DNA from: a virus
Lineage: Duplodnaviria > Heunggongvirae > Uroviricota > Caudoviricetes
Virus record (IMG/VR): IMGVR_UViG_2734482597_000010
Direction: 5' to 3' (one strand)
DNA length: 64,000 nt
Shown here: one piece after another, positions 8,029 to 60,264 of the stretch
Layout of the letters: the number at the start of each line of letters is the position of its first letter
Position numbering within the stretch: position 1 is the stretch's first letter
Notes under the pieces: model-generated
The model's database searches: none
The model's input: only the letters and a program-made list of their open reading frames with translations
Told to the model about the DNA's origin: nothing
Made by a program: the position numbers and the translations under genes

Positions 8029-8775
8029 ATGAAAAATATTGCGACAGGCGACGTTCTTGAACGTATCCGCAGACTGGCCCCGTCACATGTAACCGCGCCA
8101 TTCAAGACGGTAGCGGAGTGGCGCGAGTGGCAACTTTCCGAAGGCCAGAAACGTTGTGAGGAGATCAACCGTCAGAATCGTCAGTTGCGGGTGGAAAAAA
8201 TTCTGAATCGCTCTGGCATCCAGCCATTGCACCGCAAATGCTCGTTTTCGAATTACCAGGTGCAGAACGAAGCGCAGCGATACGCGTTGAGTCAGGCGAA
8301 ATCCATCGCTGATGAACTGATGANNNNNNNNNNNNNNNNNNNNNNNNNNNNNNNNNNNNNNNNNNNNNNNNNNNNNNNNNNNNNNNNNNNNNNNNNNNNN
8401 NNNNNNNNNNNNNNNNNNNNNNNNNNNNNNNNNNNNNNNNNNNNNNNNNNNNNNNNNNNNNNNNNNNNNNNNNNNNNNNNNNNNNNNNNNNNNNNNNNNN
8501 NNNNNNNNNNNNNNNNNNNNNNNNNNNNNNNNNNNNNNNNNNNNNNNNNNNNNNNNNNNNNNNNNNNNNNNNNGGTGGTGCTGCACCAGATTGTTGATCG
8601 CCGGACAGCGTCGATGCGCAGCGTGGGGATGCTGACAAACCTGAACTATGAGGCCATGAAAACATTGCTCGGCGAGCGGATTATGGATCGCATGACCATG
8701 AACGGCGGGCGATGGGTGAATTTTAACTGGGAGAGCTGGCGTCCGAATGTCGTCCAGCCAGGAATTGAGAAGTAA
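8029..8775 (+). CDS. ydaV: YdaV DnaC-like helicase loader (interrupted by N run 8324-8573)
   Basis: 248-codon [37 protein letters not shown]...; P-gene position; central 250 nt are N. Confidence 0.8.
8324..8573. other. assembly gap (250 N) inside ydaV
   Basis: Run of N. Confidence 1.
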
Positions 8776-14541: not shown

Positions 14542-14831
14542 TGGTGAATTTACGTAAAGCGGCTAAAGGCCAGATGTGCCAGATCAGAATCCCTGGCTAC
14601 TGCAATCACAATCCCGAAACCTCTGTGCTGGCGCATTACAGGCTGGCGGGGACGTGCGGAACAGCGACAAAACCACATGATATGCAGGCGGCGATAGCCT
14701 GTAGCTCATGCCACGATCTAATCGACGGGCGGGTAAAAACCAGCGATTACACCAAAGAAGAATTGCGCCTGATGCATGCTGAAGGGGTTTTTCGCACACA
14801 AGAAATCTGGAGAAAGAAAGGTCATTTATGA
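14541..14831 (+). CDS. YbcO-like small putative nuclease (DUF1364), 96 aa
   Basis: 96-aa ORF with four Cys (MCQIRIPGYC...CSSCHDL); length and motif recall DLP12 YbcO; ATGA overlap with upstream gene. Confidence 0.6.
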   Translation: MVNLRKAAKGQMCQIRIPGYCNHNPETSVLAHYRLAGTCGTATKPHDMQAAIACSSCHDLIDGRVKTSDYTKEELRLMHAEGVFRTQEIWRKKGHL

Positions 14832-15370
14832 TTTACCCAACGAATACAGGAAAAAGCGGAGAACACCTTCGCCTCACCACGCTGGAAAGTGTCTGGATTC
14901 AGGGAAAACTACGTATGTGGGGGCGCTGGTCGTATATTGGCGGTGGCAGGTCAGGGAATATGTTCAATCAGTTGTTGGCATCCAAAAAACTGACGAAAAC
15001 AGCCATTAATGAAGCCCTGCGCAGAATGAAAAAAGCGGGAATAGAGAAAGCTGAGCTGGAAGCGTTTTTGCGAGAGATGATCAACGGCAAGCAAAAGAGC
15101 TGGCTGGCGCATTGTACTGATGCAGAGGCGTTATGTATTGATCGAGTCATAAGTGAGGTGCTGGCAGAGCATCCAGGATTGATTTGCATTCTCCGGCAAC
15201 GCTATGAAGGGCGGGGGATGACTAAGCGCAAAATGGCTGAATTGCTAAATGATGCACACCCAGAGTGGTGTTTTAGCACATGCGAAAAACGGATTGCTAA
15301 TTGGTTAGCTGTTGCTGAGTATGCCCTATATATTCCCATGCGTGAATCATTTGCTGAGAAAATGGCTTGA
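14828..15370 (+). CDS. putative late-gene antiterminator Q-like protein (180 aa)
   Basis: Last gene of the nin region, immediately upstream of terminators and the lysis cassette; family assignment from position and overall resemblance only. Confidence 0.5.
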   Translation: MIYPTNTGKSGEHLRLTTLESVWIQGKLRMWGRWSYIGGGRSGNMFNQLLASKKLTKTAINEALRRMKKAGIEKAELEAFLREMINGKQKSWLAHCTDAEALCIDRVISEVLAEHPGLICILRQRYEGRGMTKRKMAELLNDAHPEWCFSTCEKRIANWLAVAEYALYIPMRESFAEKMA

Positions 15371-15477: not shown

Positions 15478-15797
15478 ACGTCAGGAAAGCAGGGGAGAAT
15501 GCTGCTAGTTGGGCAACTGGTCTTTCTGCTCCAAATTATAACAGAGACCAGTTATAGTTTCGGTGCTGTGTTTTTTTTACAATATTGTGATAACACATTG
15601 CTGGCGGGAGTTTTGATATTTCTTGGCAGGGGCTGATGATGCGTTATCCTGATGTCGTCAACTCATATAAAATGAGATGAGAGATCATTGCAGGGTGGTT
15701 TGTAATTCGCTGTTTAGCGGGACAATATGTTGTCTGATACAAGACACCCGACGCCTCAGATTACTATAATAAAGACGAAGCATCCTTTGTATTGACC

Positions 15798-15823
15798 AAC
15801 CGCCTGTTTAGGCGGTTCTTTTT
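15798..15823 (+). terminator. intrinsic terminator (tR'-like candidate)
   Basis: AACCGCC-TGTTTA-GGCGGTT followed by CTTTTT; a TATAAT hexamer lies at 15765-15770. Confidence 0.55.
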
Positions 15824-16355
15824 GGGCTGGTTTATTGTATGCCAAATGATTATTAAAAAGGTTGTGTTAATAACAAGATCCGAAATAATATGCCTGCATA
15901 TTTTTATCTTGCTTATATTCTGCATATTGTGCATAGCAGGCTCATCCCTGCAATCAAAACTGTATGATGAGTATTTTTTGTTTTCCTTTTTTCCAGTCAT
16001 CTGATGATGACCTGCTTCTTTTTAATCCGGATCGACATCAGTTTTTTAAGATAATTCCTGCGAGTTATATGCATAAATGCCACAAACTCCGCATTTTATG
16101 TGGTTGGGAGTTGCCGGGCGCGCAGTGAGTTTGCTAAGAAAACTCCTGCATGGTGAATCCCCCTGTGCGGTGGGGTGATACCATTAACCTTTTCTGTCGC
16201 CGACAGGTATCACGAACATTTTGTTCACCGGGAGGCACCCGGCACCATGCACTTCAATAGATTCTCTCCACATTATGGATATTCTTTCAGAATATCCCAC
16301 GCAGACTTTGTGTAAATGTTAACAAATGTGCGTTTTATTTGATCTGATTCGCTGT

Positions 16356-16385
16356 TTGAGCGTCCAAAACAACGGTATATATAAT
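16356..16385 (+). promoter_or_regulatory. candidate sigma70 promoter of the lipoprotein moron
   Basis: TTGAGC (16356-16361), 18-nt spacer, TATAAT (16380-16385); about 30 nt upstream of GAGGAAAA RBS and ATG 16415. Confidence 0.35.
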
Positions 16386-16414
16386 CCTTTACTATATGAC
16401 ATATGTGAGGAAAA

Positions 16415-16843
16415 ATGGGTTTTCGTAGCGCATCAATTCTTACGTTGATTATTAGTGGGATTATTATCGGGTGCACTGATGCTGTATCGACAAATTATCA
16501 TGACCGTACATCATATTACTCCGATAAAGCAATAGAGACACAGTATGTGAGTTCATCTGAACGTACTTCTGATGTTAGTGAGGATATCCGTCTGTATGCC
16601 CATCAAATCAAGAGCGCCATCGAAAAACAGTTCGGGGATGCGAGTAAGTATTCAGGAAAAGAGTGTACACTGAGAATGCATATGGCCCCGAATGGCCTTC
16701 TACTGGAGGTTAAAAGAGAAAGTGGAGACCTCGATTTATGTCGTGAAGCGATGAATGCGATAAAGAATGCTGATATACCTGCCCCCCCTTCGCCGGAAGT
16801 ATATAAAGTATTTCAAAATGGGGTGCTGGATTTTAAACCCTGA
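16415..16843 (+). CDS. outer-membrane lipoprotein with TolA C-terminal (domain III)-like domain (142 aa)
   Basis: Signal peptide with lipobox IIGC and Thr at +2; C-terminal ~90 aa (...HQIKSAIEKQFGDASKYSGKECTLRMHMAPNGLLLEVKRESGDLDLCREAMNAIKNADIPAPPSPEVYKVFQNGVLDFKP) aligns with my recollection of the E. coli TolA C-terminus (...IKSAIESKF...GKTCTLRIKLAPDGMLLDIKPEGGDPALC...IPKPPSQAVYEVFKNAPLDFKP). Confidence 0.7.
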   Translation: MGFRSASILTLIISGIIIGCTDAVSTNYHDRTSYYSDKAIETQYVSSSERTSDVSEDIRLYAHQIKSAIEKQFGDASKYSGKECTLRMHMAPNGLLLEVKRESGDLDLCREAMNAIKNADIPAPPSPEVYKVFQNGVLDFKP

Positions 16844-16993
16844 TATTTATTGTTTTGTAATAAACGGTTTCGGCTTAGGTTTGTTCTGACACAGCTACGG
16901 CACTGAGCTAAATTTAGCGGATAGTCAGCTCTGAGCCAGTGGCGGACGTAACAACTACTATTGCTGAGATTTTAATGGATTGAGGAGCAAGAA

Positions 16994-17389
16994 GTGGGAT
17001 TAAAGAAAATCGTTATGTTGACTTTTTGGGTCGGTTTTGTTGCGGGATGCACACCTTTACACCCTTCAGATTGCCACAAAACTACTGCTACAGGTAGTTG
17101 CAGTTCAGGACGCTGGGATGATCAGGATGAATGGGGGGCGCAAGCGCGGGGAATCAGAGCTGCAATTAATGCCAAACTTGATGAGCCGCATAACTGGAAA
17201 GGGAAAAAATGCAGGTTGCATATGGAATTCTCTCAGGATGGCACGGCGTTAAAAATATCTACCAGTAACGGTGATAAAGCCTATTGCGAAGCGATAAAGT
17301 CCGCAGCTCATAAAGCCAAATTTCCGGCCTTCAACAATCCGGAAGTCTACAGAGATTTTCAGAAATCTGGCTTTGACATGCGAGGTTAG
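16994..17389 (+). CDS. second lipoprotein, divergent paralogue of the TolA-domain-III-like protein (131 aa)
   Basis: GTG start with GAGGAG RBS; lipobox VAGC, Thr at +2; shares KxCxLxM...G..L.......GD...C.A...A...A..PA...PEVY..FQ..G.D pattern with the upstream gene. Confidence 0.6.
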   Translation: MGLKKIVMLTFWVGFVAGCTPLHPSDCHKTTATGSCSSGRWDDQDEWGAQARGIRAAINAKLDEPHNWKGKKCRLHMEFSQDGTALKISTSNGDKAYCEAIKSAAHKAKFPAFNNPEVYRDFQKSGFDMRG

Positions 17390-17514
17390 CTCTTCAATTA
17401 CTATATCTCATTCATAGCAAACTGACAGATTTGATGATGTTCTATATACGAAACCTGTGATGTCAAGTCTGAGCTAATACAAATAAACATAATATCAGAG
17501 AAATACATTTTATT

Positions 17515-17537
17515 AGCTCGCTACGGCGAGCTTTTTA
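17515..17537 (+). terminator. intrinsic terminator closing the lipoprotein moron
   Basis: AGCTCGC-TACG-GCGAGCT followed by TTTTTAT. Confidence 0.6.
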
Positions 17538-17640
17538 TATTGCATCGTCTCCAGCATATATATCAATTAAGGCTCTGATTGATGTGTCTGAAAGCCTACA
17601 CATAATAACTATGCCATCCGTTCCGTGCGGAGGTGAGGCT

Positions 17641-17860
17641 ATGAAATCCATGGACAAAATTTCAACAGGCATTGCCTACGGCACCTCCGCAGGCAGTGCT
17701 GGCTACTGGTTTTTACAGTTGCNNNNNNNNNNNNNNNNNNNNNNNNNNNNNNNCTGCAATCGGTGTGCTGGGTAGTCTGGTATTTGGCCTGCTGACGTAC
17801 CTGACAAACCTTTATTTCAAGATTAAAGAAGATAAGCGCAAGGCTGCGAGAGGTGAATAA
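17641..17860 (+). CDS. phage-21-type class II holin (S21/pinholin-like), interrupted by N run 17723-17753
   Basis: [26 protein letters not shown]...[gap]...[34 protein letters not shown]; GGAGGTGA RBS; the frame break is caused by the N run. Confidence 0.8.
17723..17753. other. assembly gap (31 N) inside the holin gene
   Basis: Run of N. Confidence 1.
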
Positions 17861-18357
17861 TGTCGCCATCATTACGCAAGGCTGTTGCAGCTGCTATTGG
17901 TGGTGGGGCTGTTGCTATAGCATCTGTGTTAATCACTGGCCCAGGTGGTAACGATGGTCTGGAAGGTGTCAGCTACATACCATACAAAGATATTGTTGGT
18001 GTATGGACTGTATGTCACGGGCATACAGGAAAAGACATCATGCTCGGTAAAACGTATACCAAAGCAGAATGCAAAACACTCTTGAATAAAGACCTTGCCA
18101 CTGTCGCCAGACAAATTAACCCGTACATCAAAGTCGATATACCGGAAACAACGCGCGGCGCTCTTTACTCATTCGTTTACAACGTGGGTGCTGGCAATTT
18201 CAGAACATCGACGCTTCTTCGCAAAATAAACCAGGGCGATATCAAAGGCGCATGTGATCAGCTACGTCGCTGGACATATGCTGGCGGTAAGCAATGGAAA
18301 GGTCTCATGACTCGTCGTGAGATTGAGCGTGAAATCTGTTTGTGGGGTCAGCAATGA
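17860..18357 (+). CDS. SAR endolysin (lysozyme, R21-like), 165 aa
   Basis: N-terminal signal-anchor-release segment [23 protein letters not shown] followed by a lysozyme-like domain; directly downstream of the holin. Confidence 0.85.
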
Positions 18358-18818: not shown

Positions 18819-18955
18819 AATCTTAACTACAATATGATTCATTTTGATGATTGTTTCATAAGGAACAGTGAAGTAAGATCTAAGAGGAGTTAAATTTTAT
18901 ACAGTATAATCATAATATTGCAGCAAGGTGGTTATAATTGAAAGAATATTTAGAT

Positions 18956-20413
18956 ATGAATACATCTCATGTAAGAGTTGTTACTCATATGTGTGGGTTC
19001 CTGGTTTGGCTCTATAGTCTTTCAATGTTGCCACCAATGGTTGTAGCATTGTTTTATAAAGAAAAAAGCCTGTTCGTTTTCTTTATAACTTTCGTTATAT
19101 TTTTTTGCATTGGTGGCGGAGCGTGGTATACAACTAAGAAATCTGGCATTCAATTACGTACCCGTGATGGGTTTATTATAATTGTAATGTTTTGGATTTT
19201 GTTTTCTGTTATTAGTGCATTCCCTTTATGGATTGACTCAGAACTTAATTTAACGTTCATTGATGCTCTGTTTGAAGGGGTTTCTGGAATAACAACAACA
19301 GGAGCAACTGTAATTGATGATGTTAGTTCATTACCTCGGGCATATTTGTACTATCGGTCACAGTTAAATTTTATAGGTGGTTTAGGAGTTATTGTTCTGG
19401 CGGTTGCAGTATTGCCATTATTGGGTATTGGTGGTGCAAAGCTTTATCAGTCAGAAATGCCGGGGCCATTTAAGGATGACAAACTCACTCCCCGCCTGGC
19501 CGATACGTCACGGACACTGTGGATAACTTATTCTTTATTAGGTATTGCTTGTATTGTCTGTTATAGACTTGCAGGAATGCCTTTGTTTGATGCTATTTGT
19601 CACGGGATTTCCACAGTTTCGCTTGGTGGTTTCTCAACTCATAGCGAGAGTATCGGATATTTTAATAACTATTTGGTTGAGCTGGTGGCTGGTTCTTTTT
19701 CCCTGCTATCGGCTTTCAACTTCACTCTTTGGTATATTGTTATTAGCAGAAAAACGATAAAACCTTTAATCAGAGATATTGAACTTCGTTTCTTTCTGTT
19801 AATAGCCTTAGGGGTGATCATTGTTACCTCTTTCCAGGTCTGGCATATAGGTATGTATGACTTGCATGGAAGTTTTATTCATTCGTTTTTTCTTGCCAGC
19901 TCCATGCTCACTGATAATGGTTTAGCTACGCAGGATTATGCAAACTGGCCCACGCACACGATAGTGTTTTTGCTGTTGTCAAGTTTCTTTGGGGGATGTA
20001 TAGGTTCAACCTGTGGTGGAATTAAGTCACTTCGATTTCTTATACTTTTCAAACAAAGCAAACACGAGATAAATCAGCTTTCTCATCCCAGAGCGTTGTT
20101 GAGTGTAAATGTAGGAGGGAAGATAGTTACAGATCGTGTAATGAGGTCTGTATGGAGTTTCTTTTTTCTTTATACTCTCTTCACGGTGTTTTTTATACTG
20201 GTGTTAAATGGTATGGGATATGATTTTCTTACATCATTTGCAACAGTGGCTGCATGTATTAATAATATGGGATTAGGTTTTGGGGCTACTGCATCGTCAT
20301 TCGGAGTGCTTAATGACATTGCAAAATATTTAATGTGCATAGCTATGATTCTTGGTCGCCTTGAAATTTATCCTGTTATTATATTGTTTTCAGGTTTTTT
20401 TTGGCGCTCCTAA
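18956..20413 (+). CDS. trkG: TrkG potassium uptake protein (485 aa), prophage cargo
   Basis: MNTSHVRVVTHMCGFLVWLYSLSMLPPMVVALFYKEK... multi-pass membrane protein matching K-12 TrkG; AT-rich. Confidence 0.9.
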   Translation: MNTSHVRVVTHMCGFLVWLYSLSMLPPMVVALFYKEKSLFVFFITFVIFFCIGGGAWYTTKKSGIQLRTRDGFIIIVMFWILFSVISAFPLWIDSELNLTFIDALFEGVSGITTTGATVIDDVSSLPRAYLYYRSQLNFIGGLGVIVLAVAVLPLLGIGGAKLYQSEMPGPFKDDKLTPRLADTSRTLWITYSLLGIACIVCYRLAGMPLFDAICHGISTVSLGGFSTHSESIGYFNNYLVELVAGSFSLLSAFNFTLWYIVISRKTIKPLIRDIELRFFLLIALGVIIVTSFQVWHIGMYDLHGSFIHSFFLASSMLTDNGLATQDYANWPTHTIVFLLLSSFFGGCIGSTCGGIKSLRFLILFKQSKHEINQLSHPRALLSVNVGGKIVTDRVMRSVWSFFFLYTLFTVFFILVLNGMGYDFLTSFATVAACINNMGLGFGATASSFGVLNDIAKYLMCIAMILGRLEIYPVIILFSGFFWRS

Positions 20414-37909: not shown

Positions 37910-38236
37910 NNNNNNNNNNNNNNNNNNNNNNNNNNNNNNNNNNNNNNNNNNNNNNNNNNNNNNNNNNNNNNNNNNNNNNNNNNNNNNNNNNNNNNNNNNN
38001 NNNNNNNNNNNNNNNNNNNNNNNNNNNNNNNNNNNNNNNNNNNNNNNNNNNNNNNNNNNNNNNNNNNNNNNNNNNNNNNNNNNNNNNNNNNNNNNNNNNN
38101 NNNNNNNNNNNNNNNNNNNNNNNNNNNNNNNNNNNNNNNNNNNNNNNNNNNNNNNNNNNNNNNNNNNNNNNNNNNNNNNNNNNNNNNNNNNNNNNNNNNN
38201 NNNNNNNNNNNNNNNNNNNNNNNNNNNNNNNNNNNN
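37910..38236. other. assembly gap (327 N) across the K/I junction, first copy
   Basis: Run of N. Confidence 1.
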
Positions 38237-55906: not shown

Positions 55907-58900
55907 ATGGGTAAAGGCAGCAGTAAGGGGCATACCCCGCGCGAAGCGAAGGACAACCTGAAGTCCACGCAGCTGCTGAGTGTGATCGATGCCATCAGCG
56001 AAGGGCCGGTTGAAGGTCCGGTGGATGGATTAAAAAGCGTGCTGCTGAACAGTACGCCGGTGCTGGACAGTGAGGGGAATACCAACATCTCCGGCGTCAC
56101 GGTGGTGTTCCGGGCAGGTGAGCAGGAGCAGTCACCGCCGGAGGGATTTGAATCCTCCGGCTCCGAGACGGTGCTGGGTACGGAAGTGAAATATGACACG
56201 CCGATCACCCGGACCATCACGTCGGCAAACATTGACCGACTGCGTTTTACCTTCGGTGTACAGGCACTGGTGGAAACCACCTCAAAGGGAGACAGGAATC
56301 CGTCTGAAGTTCGCCTGCTGGTTCAGATACAGCGTAACGGTGGCTGGGTGACGGAAAAAGACATCACCATTAAGGGCAAAACCACCTCGCAGTATCTGGC
56401 CTCGGTGGTGGTGGATAACCTGCCGCCGCGCCCGTTTAATATCCGGATGCGCAGAATGACGCCGGACAGCACCACAGACCAGCTGCAGAACAAAACGCTC
56501 TGGTCGTCATACACCGAAATCATCGATGTGAAACAGTGCTACCCGAACACGGCACTGGTCGGCGTACAGGTGGATTCGGAGCAGTTCGGCAGCCAGCAGG
56601 TGAGCCGTAATTATCATCTTCGCGGGCGCATTCTGCAGGTGCCGTCGAACTATAATCCGCAGACGCGGCAATACAGCGGTATCTGGGACGGAACGTTAAA
56701 ACCGGCATACAGCAACAACATGGCCTGGTGTCTGTGGGATATGCTGACCCATCCGCGCTATGGCATGGGGAAACGTCTTGGTGCGGCAGATGTGGATAAA
56801 TGGGCGCTGTATGTCATCGGCCAGTACTGTGACCAGTCGGTGCCGGACGGCTTTGGCAGCACGGAGCCGCGCATCACCTGTAATGCCTGGCTGACCACAC
56901 AGCGCAAGGCGTGGGATGTGCTCAGTGATTTCTGCTCGGCGATGCGCTGTATGCCGGTATGGAACGGGCAGACGCTGACGTTCGTGCAGGACCGACAGTC
57001 GGATAAGGTGTGGGCCTATAACCGCAGTAATGTGGTGATGCCGGATGATGGCGCGCCGTTCCGCTACAGTTTCAGCGCCCTGAAAGACCGCCATAATGCC
57101 GTTGAGGTGAACTGGATTGACCCGGATAACGGCTGGGAGACGGCGACAGAGCTTGTGGAGGATACGCAGGCCATTGTCCGTTACGGTCGTAACGTCACGA
57201 AGATGGATGCCTTTGGCTGTACCAGCCGGGGGCAGGCACACCGCGCCGGGCTGTGGCTGATTAAAACGGAACTGCTGGAGACGCAGACCGTGGATTTCAG
57301 CGTGGGTGCTGAAGGGCTTCGTCATGTACCGGGCGATGTCATTGAAATCTGCGATGATGACTATGCCGGTATCCGCACCGGCGGGCGCGTGCTGGCGGTG
57401 AACAGCCAGACCCGGACGCTGACGCTCGACCGTGAAATCACGCTGCCATCCTCCGGCACCACGCTGATAAGCCTGGTTGACGGGCAGGGGAATCCGGTCA
57501 GCGTGGAGGTCCAGTCCGTCACCGACGGCGTGAAGGTAAAAGTGAGCCGTGTTCCTGACGGTGTTGCTGAATACAGCGTGTGGGGGCTGAAGCTGCCGAC
57601 GCTGCACCAGCGATTGTTCCGCTGCGTGAGTANNNNNNNNNNNNNNNNNNNNNNNNNNNNNNNNNNNNNNNNNNNNNNNNNNNNNNNNNNNNNNNNNNNN
57701 NNNNNNNNNNNNNNNNNNNNNNNNNNNNNNNNNNNNNNNNNNNNNNNNNNNNNNNNNNNNNNNNNNNNNNNNNNNNNNNNNNNNNNNNNNNNNNNNNNNN
57801 NNNNNNNNNNNNNNNNNNNNNNNNNNNNNNNNNNNNNNNNNNNNNNNNNNNNNNNNNNNNNNNNNNNNNNNNNNNNNNNNNNNNNNNNNNNNNNNNNNNN
57901 NNNNNNNNNNNNNNNNNNNNNNNNNNNNNNNNNNNNNNNNNNNNNNNNNNNNGCTGACAGTCCGGGCAGTAAATGCGTGGGGGCAGCAGGNNNNNNNNNN
58001 NNNNNNNNNNNNNNNNNNNNNNNNNNNNNNNNNNNNNNNNNNNNNNNNNNNNNNNNNNNNNNNNNNNNNNNNNNNNNNNNNNNNNNNNNNNNNNNNNNNN
58101 NNNNNNNNNNNNNNNNNNNNNNNNNNNNNNNNNNNNNNNNNNNNNNNNNNNNNNNNNNNNNNNNNNNNNNNNNNNNNNNNNNNNNNNNNNNNNNNNNNNN
58201 NNNNNNNNNNNNNNNNNNNNNNNNNNNNNNNNNNNNNNNNTGATTATTACTTTTATATCCGCAGTGTGAACACCGTTGGCAAATCGGCATTCGTGGAGGC
58301 TGTTGGTCAGCCGAGTGATGATGCATCCGGTTATCTGGATTTTTTCAAAGGCGAGATAGGGAAAACCCATCTGGCTCAGGAGCTGTGGACGCAGATTGAT
58401 AACGGTCAGCTTGCGCCTGACCTGGCTGAAATCAGGACGTCCATTACGGATGTCAGCAATGAAATCACGCAGACCGTCAATAAGAAACTGGAAGACCAGA
58501 GTGCGGCAATTCAGCAGATACAGAAGGTTCAGGTTGATACAAATAATAACCTGAACAGCATGTGGGCTGTGAAGCTGCAGCAGATGCAGGACGGACGCCT
58601 TTATATCGCGGGTATTGGTGCCGGTATTGAGAACACCCCTGACGGCATGCAGAGTCAGGTGCTGCTGGCGGCGGACAGGATTGCGATGGTTAATCCTGCG
58701 AATGGCAACACAAAACCGATGTTTGTTGGTCAGGGCGATCAGATATTCATGAACGACGTGTTCCTGAAACGCCTGACGGCCCCCACCATTACCAGCGGTG
58801 GAAATCCATCGGCATTTTCCCTGACTCCGGACGGAAAGCTGACCGCTAAAAATGCGGATATCAGTGGCAGTGTGAATGCGAACGCCGGGACGCTCAACAA

Positions 58901-59460: not shown

Positions 59461-60264
59461 ATGCGTAAAGTTTGTGCAGCCATTTTGTCCGCAGCCATTT
59501 GCCTGGCCGTATCCGGTGCGCCTGCATGGGCGTCTGAACATCAGTCCACGCTGAGCGCGGGGTATCTTCATGCCCGGACCAACGTTCCCGGCAGTGATGA
59601 TCTGAACGGGATTAACGTGAAATACCGTTATGAGTTTACGGATACGCTGGGGCTGGTGACGTCATTCAGCTATGCAGGAGACAAGAATCGCCAGCTGACC
59701 CGTTACAGCGATACCCGCTGGCATGAAGATTCCGTGCGTAACCGCTGGTTCAGCGTGATGGCGGGGCCGTCTGTGCGCGTGAATGAATGGTTCAGCGCGT
59801 ATGCGATGGCGGGTGTGGCTTACAGCCGTGTGTCGACTTTCTCCGGGGATTATCTCCGCGTAACTGACAACAAGGGGAAAACGCACGACGTGCTGACCGG
59901 AAGTGATGACGGTCGCCACAGCAACACGTCTCTGGCGTGGGGAGCTGGCGTGCAGTTTAACCCGACCGAATCCGTGGCCATTGATATTGCTTATGAAGGC
60001 TCCGNNNNNNNNNNNNNNNNNNNNNNNNNNNNNNNNNNNNNNNNNNNNNNNNNNNNNNNNNNNNNNNNNNNNNNNNNNNNNNNNNNNNNNNNNNNNNNNN
60101 NNNNNNNNNNNNNNNNNNNNNNNNNNNNNNNNNNNNNNNNNNNNNNNNNNNNNNNNNNNNNNNNNNNNNNNNNNNNNNNNNNNNNNNNNNNNNNNNNNNN
60201 NNNNNNNNNNNNNNNNNNNNNNNNNNNNNNNNNNNNNNNNNNNNNNNNNNNNNNTCGGTTATAA
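59461..60264 (+). CDS. lom: outer membrane protein Lom (Ail/Lom family); 3' end lies in N run 60005-60254
   Basis: MRKVCAAILSAAICLAVSGAPAWASEHQSTLSAGYLHARTN...; signal peptide; the true stop is probably inside the gap. Confidence 0.8.
   Translation: MRKVCAAILSAAICLAVSGAPAWASEHQSTLSAGYLHARTNVPGSDDLNGINVKYRYEFTDTLGLVTSFSYAGDKNRQLTRYSDTRWHEDSVRNRWFSVMAGPSVRVNEWFSAYAMAGVAYSRVSTFSGDYLRVTDNKGKTHDVLTGSDDGRHSNTSLAWGAGVQFNPTESVAIDIAYEGSXXXXXXXXXXXXXXXXXXXXXXXXXXXXXXXXXXXXXXXXXXXXXXXXXXXXXXXXXXXXXXXXXXXXXXXXXXXXXXXXXXXXRL
60005..60254. other. assembly gap (250 N) at the 3' end of lom
   Basis: Run of N. Confidence 1.

What the first reader, a model, noticed from the sequence alone, without database searches (positions are those of the whole stretch)
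16356..17537. Moron between Q and the lysis genes encoding two tandem lipoproteins with a TolA C-terminal-domain-like fold
A self-contained unit (candidate promoter at 16356-16385, strong RBS, terminator at 17515-17537) sits between the Q-like gene and the holin, the classic moron slot that in other lambdoid phages holds stx or bor-type cargo. Both genes encode proteins with lipoprotein signal peptides (lipoboxes IIGC and VAGC, Thr at +2 implying outer-membrane sorting). The first protein's C-terminal ~90 residues align closely with the C-terminal domain of E. coli TolA as I remember it (IKSAIE, GKxCTLR, APxGxLL, LC, IPxPPS, VYxVFxNxxLDFKP); the second is a more divergent paralogue with the same cysteine/Tyr/Phe pattern. 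TolA domain III is what filamentous-phage g3p and group A colicins engage to cross the periplasm, and it contacts Tol-Pal partners. A periplasm-facing, lipid-anchored copy of that domain expressed from a prophage could act as a decoy (superinfection exclusion or colicin tolerance) or interfere with Tol-Pal. I am not aware of a characterised function for such proteins.
Basis: partly seen in the sequence, partly recalled or inferred. Interest (0 to 1): 0.8.

Follow-up and report, generated by a model that had tools for sequence, protein, structure and literature searches.

The report
Prophage lipoproteins that copy TolA's tip
A Rac-type E. coli prophage carries, just upstream of its lysis genes, two small lipoproteins, predicted to be outer-membrane anchored, whose bodies copy the tip domain of TolA, the periplasmic protein that colicins and filamentous phages grab to enter; they are widespread on prophages and plasmids, have no tested function, and are most likely decoys.

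Summary
ORF1 (16415-16843, 142 aa) and ORF2 (16994-17389, 131 aa, GTG start) both have lipoprotein signal peptides. Both end in a TolA C-terminal (domain III) fold. ORF1 is 59% identical, without gaps, to E. coli TolA 334-421; ORF2 is 31% identical. Predicted structures superpose on solved TolA-III at 0.6 Å and 1.2 Å.

The pair lies between a Q-like antiterminator and the holin. A promoter-like site precedes it and a good terminator hairpin follows it.

The same module sits behind different Q genes in Rac-type and Qin-type prophages. It occurs in 774 of 5,426 complete E. coli genomes.

The two genes are not a recent duplication. The ORF1 family was seen only in E. coli and Shigella, and every copy examined lay in a prophage. 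ORF2 relatives occur alone on about 600 plasmids (IncI-complex conjugative and pO157-like) and on chromosomes of several genera. Both genes are under purifying selection.

No function has been published; database names are homology labels, and "TolA" is wrong.

The best explanation, at about 0.4 confidence, is an outer-membrane-tethered decoy for ligands of TolA domain III. This would give tolerance to group A colicins and filamentous phages. Interference with Tol-Pal is the main rival. ORF2's invariant cysteine-loop "linker" is unexplained.

The parts
14828..15370 (+). Q-like late antiterminator gene (context: left neighbour)
   Evidence: PHROG 753 'anti-termination protein Q-like', E = 2e-79. 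PGAP names it a DUF1133 family protein.
16118..16304 (+). STnc100/PasD-family prophage sRNA; its 3' part belongs to the module shared between prophage types
   Evidence: Rfam RF02076, 86.6 bits against a gathering score of 47. Homology with Qin-type prophages and phage mEp460 starts at about 16127 and is near-identical from 16224.
16356..16385 (+). sigma-70 promoter-like site (TTGAGC-18-TATAAT) about 30 nt upstream of ORF1; a candidate only
   Evidence: 10 of 12 consensus matches. It is identical in the Qin-type copy but absent upstream of the diverged ORF1 variant in L017.
16415..16843 (+). ORF1: 142-aa lipoprotein precursor. Signal peptide with lipobox IIGC (Cys20, codon 16472-16474), a disordered tether of about 33 aa, and a TolA-III domain (residues 55-142, 16577-16840).
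   Evidence: Pfam PF06519 E = 2.4e-23. 59% identical and gapless to TolA 334-421. AlphaFold2 and Foldseek: rmsd 0.6 Å to 2x9a_B. dN/dS is 0.24 in the domain.
16782..16788 (+). C7 homopolymer inside ORF1 (codons for PAPP); frameshift variants exist in public assemblies
   Evidence: Read from the sequence. Variants P0129-P0137 have an alternative C-terminus.
16994..17389 (+). ORF2: 131-aa lipoprotein precursor with a GTG start and a GAGGAG ribosome-binding site at 16982-16987. Lipobox VAGC (Cys19), an invariant cysteine-loop segment (residues 19-44), and a TolA-III domain (about residues 44-131).
   Evidence: Pfam PF06519 E = 1.3e-14. 31% identical and gapless to TolA. AlphaFold2 and Foldseek: rmsd 1.2 Å to 3qdp. 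dN/dS is 0.04-0.13. The plasmid homologue has ATG at the same position as the GTG.
17515..17537 (+). intrinsic terminator-like hairpin plus T-run, closing the two-gene unit
   Evidence: 7-bp stem with 5 G-C pairs, followed by TTTTTATATT. Folding energy -13 kcal/mol, z = -3.95, matched by 0 of 200 shuffles.
17641..17856 (+). holin essD (context: right neighbour and right end of the shared module); contains a masking N-run at 17723-17753
   Evidence: Annotated in the near-identical locus L001. Homology with Qin-type prophages and mEp460 ends at 17861. N-run located.

Best explanation
ORF1 and ORF2 are probably cargo genes expressed in the lysogen. [quoted passage not shown] There it would dangle a copy of TolA domain III just under the membrane.

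TolA-III is the periplasmic hub that incoming group A colicins (ColN, ColA and others) and the g3p N1 domain of filamentous phages bind by adding a beta-strand to its sheet. A tethered copy that is not coupled to the TolQR motor would capture these ligands at the point of entry and stall import. The cell carrying the element would become tolerant to those colicins and excluded for pilus-dependent filamentous phages.

The natural ligand, the TolB N-terminus, binds TolA 10-100 times more weakly than colicins do. Moderate expression could therefore protect the cell without poisoning Tol-Pal. During induction, Q-modified polymerase reads through the unit to reach the lysis genes.

Shown here: the domain identity and predicted fold, the lipobox, conservation of the binding edges in ORF1, purifying selection, and carriage on mobile elements including conjugative plasmids. 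Inferred: outer-membrane location, expression in the lysogen, ligand binding, and the protective phenotype.
For: Fold and mimicry. Both proteins are TolA-III by sequence and predicted structure.

Binding edges in ORF1. Strand beta3 (TolA 415-420, APLDFK) is the shared site for TolB, ColN and g3p-N1. Binding there depends on backbone hydrogen bonds at D418 and K420 and is abolished by proline (PMC4339652). ORF1 has GVLDFK and ORF2 has SGFDMR; neither has a proline. The ColA site (L375-P380 plus K368, K379, K396; PMC3365938) is LLEVKR with H, K, K in ORF1.

Affinities favour invaders. ColN-TolA is about 1 µM and ColA-TolA 1.3 µM, against 40-200 µM for TolB-TolA.

Precedent. Exporting soluble TolA-III to the periplasm makes E. 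coli leak periplasmic proteins (Wan & Baneyx 1998, as used in PMC6195910). From my memory only, Levengood-Freyermuth et al. 1993 also reported colicin tolerance; only that paper's title was seen here.

Real, constrained genes. dN/dS is 0.24 for the ORF1 domain and 0.04-0.13 for ORF2, at dS 0.5-1.1.

Cargo behaviour. The same module follows different Q genes. An ORF1 variant sits alone at the position where Stx phages carry stx (my identification of that position, from memory), in an Stx-like prophage. G+C is 40-45% against 47-52% in the neighbouring phage genes.

Plasmid carriage. Lipoprotein + TolA-III genes are on 917 PLSDB plasmids, 488 of them conjugative. These include IncI-complex plasmids (gene next to the nikB relaxase) and Klebsiella IncFII(K) F-type plasmids. 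These elements make the pili that filamentous phages use; IF1 g3p with TolA-III is PDB entry 2x9a.
Against: No experiment or expression data for these proteins was found. The promoter is only a consensus match in AT-rich DNA, where such matches are frequent, and it is not conserved upstream of the diverged ORF1 variant.

ORF2 has lost all three ColA-contacting lysines and is only 31% identical to TolA. Yet it is 78-90% conserved across genera. Its most invariant part is the N-terminal cysteine-loop segment, not the TolA-like edges. That pattern fits a conserved endogenous partner better than mimicry of TolA.

ORF2 homologues also sit as single genes in ordinary chromosomal neighbourhoods in Enterobacter, Serratia, Citrobacter and Klebsiella.

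A TolA-III copy that binds TolB could harm the host. The slot just before the holin equally fits a role in lysis.
Confidence: 0.4

Rival explanations
1. Tol-Pal antagonist acting in the lytic cycle. The genes would be expressed mainly from the Q-dependent late transcript. The tethered TolA-III domains would bind the TolB N-terminus (or another TolA partner) and uncouple TolB-Pal from the TolQRA motor. This loosens the outer membrane (leakiness, vesiculation) and helps the spanins finish lysis or release progeny.
For: The unit lies directly upstream of the holin inside the late operon, in all three prophage backbones seen. The beta3 edge used by TolB is kept in both proteins. Periplasmic TolA-III overproduction makes cells leak. 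TolA beta3 mutants that cannot bind TolB show a full tol phenotype.
Against: The prophage already has holin, endolysin and Rz/Rz1-type genes. The unit has its own promoter-like site and terminator. ORF2-family genes occur on plasmids and chromosomes with no lysis genes nearby, where constitutive damage to Tol-Pal would be costly. TolB binds TolA only weakly (40-200 µM).
Confidence: 0.22
2. Envelope lipoproteins with a partner of their own. The TolA-III/TonB-C fold would serve as a general beta-strand-capturing module, directed at a ligand other than the known TolA ligands. Candidates are an outer-membrane protein, a toxin or effector from a competitor, or an entry protein of another phage. For ORF2, specificity would come largely from its invariant cysteine-loop segment.
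For: ORF2's segment 19-44 is invariant at 16 of 26 positions across genera and includes two extra cysteines. Purifying selection is very strong. The family is spread as a single gene across chromosomes, plasmids and prophages. A profile search finds many diverse short lipoproteins with this domain. One Serratia copy lies next to GmrSD and HEPN genes.
Against: No candidate partner was identified. The resemblance of SSGRWDDQDEWG to the colicin TolB box fails the core consensus DG(S/T)GWSSE. ORF1, at 59% identity to TolA with the known binding edges kept, looks like plain mimicry.
Confidence: 0.25
3. Decaying remnants of captured tolA with no function. This is the reading implied by PGAP, which annotates ORF1 as a tolA pseudogene 'missing N-terminus'.
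For: The PGAP pseudogene call in one genome. Frameshift variants at the C7 tract appear in some assemblies.
Against: Both reading frames are intact, each with its own signal peptide and lipobox. dN/dS is well below 1 at substantial dS. The exact ORF1 sequence is seen on at least 1,000 contigs. The unit is present in 774 complete genomes. In other genomes PGAP annotates ORF1 as an intact gene.
Confidence: 0.03

Closest known systems
TolA domain III of E. coli (PDB 1TOL, 1S62, 2X9A, 3QDP/3QDR; Pfam PF06519)
   Same: Same fold, same length and same C-terminal end point, with the same disulfide pair. ORF1 is 59% identical and ORF2 31% identical. The beta3 edge that binds TolB, ColN and g3p is kept.
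   Different: There is no TolA domain I (the membrane anchor that couples to TolQR) and no long helical domain II. A lipoprotein signal peptide and a short tether take their place. The genes lie on a prophage, not in the tol-pal cluster, so the domain cannot transmit force. The database name 'TolA' is a mislabel.
Recombinant periplasmic TolA-III (Levengood-Freyermuth et al. 1993; Wan & Baneyx 1998)
   Same: A free TolA-III domain in the periplasm, uncoupled from the motor. It is reported to make cells leaky and, by my recollection, colicin-tolerant. That is the laboratory equivalent of what these genes would do.
   Different: The laboratory construct is soluble, overproduced and identical to host TolA. 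The proteins here are natural, lipid-anchored, diverged and of unknown expression level.
Prophage- or plasmid-encoded outer-membrane lipoproteins that block entry (T5 Llp, phi80/N15 Cor, F TraT, lambda Bor)
   Same: Small lipoproteins carried as cargo by mobile elements and expressed in the carrier cell. They protect it against incoming phages, colicins or DNA. Bor and the stx genes occupy comparable slots in the lambdoid late region. This comparison rests on my own knowledge.
   Different: There is no sequence relationship (PADLOC gives no hit; PHROG 5772 is of unknown function). Those proteins, as I recall, act on a surface receptor such as FhuA. The proposal here is a decoy copy of a periplasmic import hub.
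Filamentous-phage g3p expressed in infected cells (superinfection exclusion and colicin tolerance through TolA)
   Same: It targets the same TolA-III interaction to shut the Tol import route. This rests on my own knowledge.
   Different: g3p occupies the host's TolA. The proteins here would instead occupy the invader's TolA-binding site.

Membership tests
TolA C-terminal domain (Pfam PF06519) | Profile score above the curated gathering score (25 bits) | tested here: met
   ORF1 scores 82.6 bits and ORF2 54.6 bits.
TolA C-terminal domain (Pfam PF06519) | Alpha/beta fold of TolA-III with three strands, and the conserved disulfide pair (C363, C388) | tested here: met
   AlphaFold2 models have pLDDT >90 over the domain. 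Foldseek top hits are E. coli TolA-III, with TM 0.94 and 0.91 and rmsd 0.6 and 1.2 Å. Both cysteines are kept.
Bona fide TolA (NCBIfam NF007065 / TIGR02794 equivalogs) | Full-length match above the curated cut-off | tested here: not met
   Against NF007065, ORF1 scores 107.8 and ORF2 53.7 bits; the cut-off is 213. Against TIGR02794, ORF1 scores 75.6 bits, above the 59.45 cut-off, but it covers only profile positions 265-362 of 362. ORF2 scores 47.2, below the cut-off.
Bona fide TolA (NCBIfam NF007065 / TIGR02794 equivalogs) | N-terminal transmembrane domain I, long helical domain II, and a gene in the tolQRA-tolB-pal cluster | tested here: not met
   The proteins are 142 and 131 aa, with a cleavable lipoprotein signal peptide and a 20-35 aa tether. 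Their neighbours are a Q-like gene and a holin.
Bacterial lipoproteins (Lgt/LspA/Lnt substrates) | Positively charged n-region, hydrophobic h-region, lipobox [LVI][ASTVI][GAS]C | tested here: met
   The signal peptides are MGFRSASILTLIISGIIIGC and MGLKKIVMLTFWVGFVAGC. The lipobox is conserved in nearly all full-length family members and in 59 of 94 short representatives of the wider superfamily.
Bacterial lipoproteins (Lgt/LspA/Lnt substrates) | Actual lipidation and outer-membrane localisation | not testable with these tools
   Residue +2 is Thr (Ala or Ser in relatives), never Asp. By the established +2 rule this predicts Lol-dependent sorting to the outer membrane. Confirmation needs globomycin or palmitate labelling and membrane fractionation.
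Phage moron (Hendrix/Juhala sense) | An extra gene unit present in some related phages and not others, lying between conserved phage genes | tested here: met
   The same unit follows different Q genes in Rac-type and Qin-type prophages and in mEp460. 446 genomes share the whole Q-to-ORF1 interval, against 774 genomes that carry the unit. An ORF1 variant sits alone in a third backbone.
Phage moron (Hendrix/Juhala sense) | Own promoter and terminator, allowing expression from the repressed prophage | tested here: inconclusive
   A consensus promoter-like site (10 of 12) and a convincing terminator hairpin are present. Promoter-like sites are frequent in this region, and no transcript data were available.
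Phage moron (Hendrix/Juhala sense) | Base composition different from the flanking phage genes | tested here: met
   G+C is 0.40-0.46 across the unit, against 0.47-0.52 in the nin/Q genes and in the lysozyme and Rz genes. The difference is modest.
Known anti-phage defence or superinfection-exclusion families | Sequence match to a catalogued defence protein family | tested here: not met
   PADLOC-DB gives 0 families for either protein. Both match PHROG 5772, 'unknown function'.
Colicin/Pal-type TolB box (considered for the ORF2 linker) | Core consensus DG(S/T)GWSSE, with the essential D, S/T, W and E residues and, in ColE9, a distal W | tested here: not met
   ORF2 has SSGRWDDQDEWG. Aligned on the first W, D35 becomes S, S37 becomes G, E42 becomes Q, and the distal W is off by one. 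The consensus is taken from PMC2821528.

The most novel reading that the evidence does not exclude
Mobile elements of Enterobacteriaceae (lambdoid prophages, IncI-complex and IncF conjugative plasmids, pO157-like plasmids) carry a so far unrecognised class of defence gene. These genes encode outer-membrane-tethered copies of the TolA import-hub domain. The copies act as periplasmic decoys and give the carrier cell immunity-like tolerance to Tol-dependent colicins and to the filamentous phages that enter through the very pili those plasmids build. In the tandem pair, ORF1 would be the plain TolA mimic. ORF2 would add a second specificity through its invariant cysteine loop.
Probability: 0.35. 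Interest if true: 0.8.

Novelty: new variant of a known kind. Interest (0 to 1): 0.62.

Why it matters
Group A colicins and filamentous phages are textbook users of the Tol system. Tolerance to them has been explained by receptor loss, tol mutations or immunity proteins.

A naturally occurring, horizontally spread TolA-III decoy would be a new route to colicin tolerance and phage exclusion. The pair studied here is in about 14% of complete E. coli genomes. Related genes are on hundreds of plasmids, including pO157-like and conjugative resistance plasmids.

It would also explain how conjugative plasmids could offset the phage liability of their own pili. It would matter for colicin-based and phage-based antimicrobials. 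It would correct a systematic mis-annotation ("TolA", or "tolA pseudogene") in thousands of genomes.

If the proteins instead modulate Tol-Pal, they would be natural tools for probing the TolA-TolB force-transduction step and outer-membrane vesiculation.

Tried and rejected
**Literature.** I ran ten full-text searches:
- TolA-like + prophage.
- TolA + lipoprotein + superinfection exclusion + prophage.
- pO157 + TolA.
- TolA + decoy + colicin + lipoprotein.
- TolA + moron.
- Five others.

None found a study of these proteins. One EHEC paper links "TolA" to EDL933_2012, but its supplement lists that gene as a tail fibre protein, so I dropped it. The key precedent papers (PMC196117, PMC1567883, PMC1847374) are not held.

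**TolB-box idea.** I considered whether the ORF2 linker is a colicin-type TolB box. I rejected membership because the core consensus is not met. phmmer of the linker against PDB sequences gave nothing meaningful.

**Q-like protein.** The 180-aa protein has no sequence match among solved structures. I confirmed it through PHROGs instead.

**Viral structure library.** BFVD has no TolA-III match. The afdb50 library was unavailable.

**Promoter conservation.** The diverged ORF1 variant has a non-homologous upstream region, so conservation could not be used as evidence.

**Pseudogene reading.** Rejected on dN/dS.

**Recent tandem duplication.** Rejected on identities (ORF1-ORF2 28%, ORF1-TolA 59%) and on the separate distributions of the two families.

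**Coordinate mapping.** My early mapping from strain ECCHD184 holds only near the finding. Window 6.7-13.5 kb, and the window beyond 35 kb, differ from that strain.
Full report
**What is there**

The interval 16356-17537 holds two plus-strand ORFs. ORF1 is 16415-16843 (142 aa, ATG). ORF2 is 16994-17389 (131 aa, GTG, preceded by GAGGAG at 16982-16987).

Both begin with a lipoprotein signal peptide: MGFRSASILTLIISGIIIGC and MGLKKIVMLTFWVGFVAGC. Residue +2 is Thr in both. By the established +2 rule this predicts Lol sorting to the outer membrane.

The GTG start of ORF2 is supported by the plasmid homologue, which has ATG at that exact position before the same MG(V/L)KKIV. PGAP's later start at 17015 would remove the charged n-region.

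**Domain identity**

- Both proteins exceed the Pfam gathering score for PF06519, TolA C-terminal (82.6 and 54.6 bits against 25).
- Against PDB sequences, ORF1 residues 55-142 align without gaps to E. coli TolA 334-421 (E = 5e-28), with 52 of 88 identical.
- ORF2 aligns without gaps with 27 of 88 identical (E = 5e-9).
- All three proteins end at the same C-terminal position. Both TolA-III cysteines are kept.
- AlphaFold2 models are confident over the domains (pLDDT >90) and disordered over residues 1-52 (ORF1) and 1-38 (ORF2).
- Foldseek places E. coli TolA-III first for both. ORF1 matches 2x9a_B at rmsd 0.6 Å and TM 0.94. ORF2 matches 3qdp at rmsd 1.2 Å and TM 0.91.

These proteins are not TolA. 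They lack domains I and II, fail the NF007065 cut-off (107.8 and 53.7 bits against 213) and lie on a prophage. PGAP nevertheless names ORF1 "tolA", in one genome as a pseudogene "missing N-terminus".

**Setting**

The window is a Rac-type lambdoid prophage: recE, kilR, sieB and so on, then Q-like, the pair, essD, rrrD, Rz and trkG.

- The left neighbour, 14828-15370, is Q-like (PHROG 753, E = 2e-79).
- About 1 kb of non-coding DNA follows. It holds a promoter/terminator pair at 15741-15817, probably pR'/tR' (my inference).
- It also holds an STnc100/PasD-family sRNA at 16118-16304 (86.6 bits). This is a known resident of the Q-to-holin interval of prophages (bioRxiv 10.64898/2026.05.13.724894).
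- The promoter-like site at 16356-16385 matches 10 of 12 consensus positions. Such sites are common here (11 found against 6.4 ± 2.6 expected).
- The terminator at 17515-17537 is convincing (-13 kcal/mol, z = -3.95).
- No terminator was found between the ORFs, so co-transcription is likely (inference).

**Mobility**

- The unit is present at 99% identity or more in 774 of 5,426 complete E. coli genomes.
- It is present in one deposited phage genome, mEp460_ev081.
- Only 446 genomes share the whole Q-to-ORF1 interval.
- In Qin-type prophages and in mEp460, a different 273-aa Q is followed by a DUF3927 gene (in the Qin-type prophage also by tRNA genes) and then by the same module. Homology runs from about 16127 to 17861, the end of the holin.
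- G+C is 0.40-0.46, against 0.47-0.52 in the neighbouring phage genes.

This fits a moron.

**Two families, not one duplication**

ORF1 and ORF2 are 28-29% identical. ORF2 is no closer to ORF1 than to TolA.

The ORF1 family has 46 clusters at 90% identity and is confined to E. coli and Shigella. A 66%-identical variant lies alone, without ORF2, in an Stx-like prophage. Its order is Q, TfpB, AraC-like, TolA-like, nanS-p, DUF1378, DUF826, holin, so it occupies what I recall as the stx position.

The ORF2 family has 370 clusters and spans Escherichia, Shigella, Citrobacter, Enterobacter, Serratia, Klebsiella and Raoultella.
- It occurs alone on about 600 E. coli and Shigella plasmids.
- On IncI1/B/O and IncK/Z conjugative plasmids it lies right after the nikB relaxase gene. 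On a pO157-like IncF plasmid it lies next to toxB.
- It also occurs as a single gene in ordinary, genus-specific chromosomal neighbourhoods.

About 300 Klebsiella IncFII(K) conjugative plasmids carry a third lineage with the same architecture: lipobox ITAC, a tether, and TolA-III ending NAALDFRL.

A profile search of 1.8 billion representatives found 593 relatives. Among the best 150, 94 are 165 aa or shorter, and at least 59 of those have a lipobox. "Lipoprotein + tether + TolA-III" is therefore a broad architecture, and one I found no study of.

**Selection**

- ORF1 against its variant: dS 0.46 and dN/dS 0.24 in the domain, and dN/dS 0.50 in the signal peptide and tether.
- Mature ORF2 against plasmid and other-genus copies: dS 0.5-1.1 and dN/dS 0.04-0.13.

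These are functional genes. Unexpectedly, the ORF2 segment between the lipid anchor and the domain (residues 19-44, CTPLHPSDCHKTTATGSCSSGRWDDQDEW) is the most invariant part of the family. 16 of 26 positions are invariant in 115 sequences, including two extra cysteines.

I checked this segment against the colicin TolB box (ColE9 32-GASDGSGWSSENNPW-46, core DG(S/T)GWSSE; PMC2821528). The core is not met.

**Mechanism**

TolA-III is a hub.
- Strand beta3 (A415-K420) binds the TolB N-terminus, ColN and g3p-N1 by strand addition. Binding depends on backbone hydrogen bonds at D418 and K420 and is abolished by prolines there (PMC4339652; PMC7391070).
- ColA binds the opposite edge: L375-P380 plus K368, K379 and K396 (PMC3365938).
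- ORF1 has GVLDFK at beta3, and LLEVKR with H, K, K at the ColA site.
- ORF2 has SGFDMR at beta3 and has lost all three lysines.
- ColN and ColA bind TolA at about 1 µM, against 40-200 µM for TolB.
- Soluble TolA-III exported to the periplasm makes cells leaky. By my recollection of Levengood-Freyermuth et al. 1993 (not readable here), it also makes them colicin-tolerant.

My best explanation is an outer-membrane-tethered decoy that intercepts Tol-dependent invaders at the point of entry (confidence about 0.4). The carriage of this architecture on I-type and F-type conjugative plasmids, whose pili are the receptors of filamentous phages, fits that idea. It does not prove it.

The main rivals:
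- Late-expressed antagonism of Tol-Pal that aids lysis or vesiculation (about 0.22).
- A different partner altogether, especially for ORF2 (about 0.25).
- Pseudogenes (about 0.03, contradicted).

**Novelty**

The domain and the annotation labels are known. No function has been published that I could find. BFVD has no TolA-III structure.

I rate the finding a new variant of a known kind: cargo lipoproteins of mobile elements that protect the envelope, here by copying a host import hub. Interest is 0.62. It is widespread, mis-annotated and directly testable, but the function remains inferred.

Noticed in passing
window 16118-16304 (+): An STnc100/PasD-family prophage sRNA (RF02076, 86.6 bits) lies directly upstream of ORF1. 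Its 3' hairpin here lacks the U-tail of the Rfam consensus, so read-through into ORF1 is conceivable. In the L017 variant locus, a hairpin resembling the STnc100 terminator lies downstream of the TolA-like gene instead (L017 6612-6631).
   Followed up: partly
window 16782-16788: A C7 homopolymer sits inside ORF1. About nine small protein clusters, mostly from short-read assemblies, carry a frameshift there that gives a 157-aa product with a different C-terminus. Sequencing error and phase variation were not distinguished.
   Followed up: partly
window 17021-17125 (ORF2 residues 19-44, within ORF2 16994-17389): The supposed linker of ORF2, with two extra cysteines (C27, C36), is the most conserved part of the family (16 of 26 positions invariant across genera). 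AlphaFold2 gives it low confidence. No known motif fits it.
   Followed up: partly
L022 4812-5246 (Klebsiella pneumoniae IncFII(K) plasmid NZ_CP033755.1): This is a third lineage of lipoprotein + TolA-III (144 aa, lipobox ITAC), found on about 300 Klebsiella plasmids. It lies next to a thioredoxin-fold periplasmic protein and is annotated 'tolA'.
   Followed up: partly
L010/L011 6001-8736 (Serratia marcescens chromosome): The ORF2-family gene lies next to a GmrSD-like gene and a HEPN-domain gene, which looks like a defence-island setting. In Enterobacter, Citrobacter and Klebsiella the neighbours are ordinary metabolic or regulatory genes.
   Followed up: no
window 15741-15817 (+): A promoter-like site (AAGACA-18-TATAAT) is followed 28 nt later by a terminator hairpin, about 370 nt downstream of the Q-like gene. 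This is probably the late promoter pR' and its terminator tR'.
   Followed up: no
window 17723-17753, and 8324-8573, 37910-38236, 57633-57952, 57991-58240, 60005-60254: These are runs of N (masking). The first lies inside the holin gene and splits it in ORF listings. The gene length is preserved (17641-17856).
   Followed up: yes
window 18938-20413 (+): trkG (potassium transporter, G+C 0.33-0.41) lies directly after the Rz gene, as in K-12 Rac. It is a second low-G+C cargo gene of the same prophage.
   Followed up: no
window 41112-64000: A second run of large phage-type ORFs lies beyond the Rac-type structural genes. Their sizes suggest terminase, portal, tape-measure and tail-fibre genes. This may be a tandem or composite prophage. 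The window also differs from strain ECCHD184 at 6.7-13.5 kb and beyond 35 kb.
   Followed up: no
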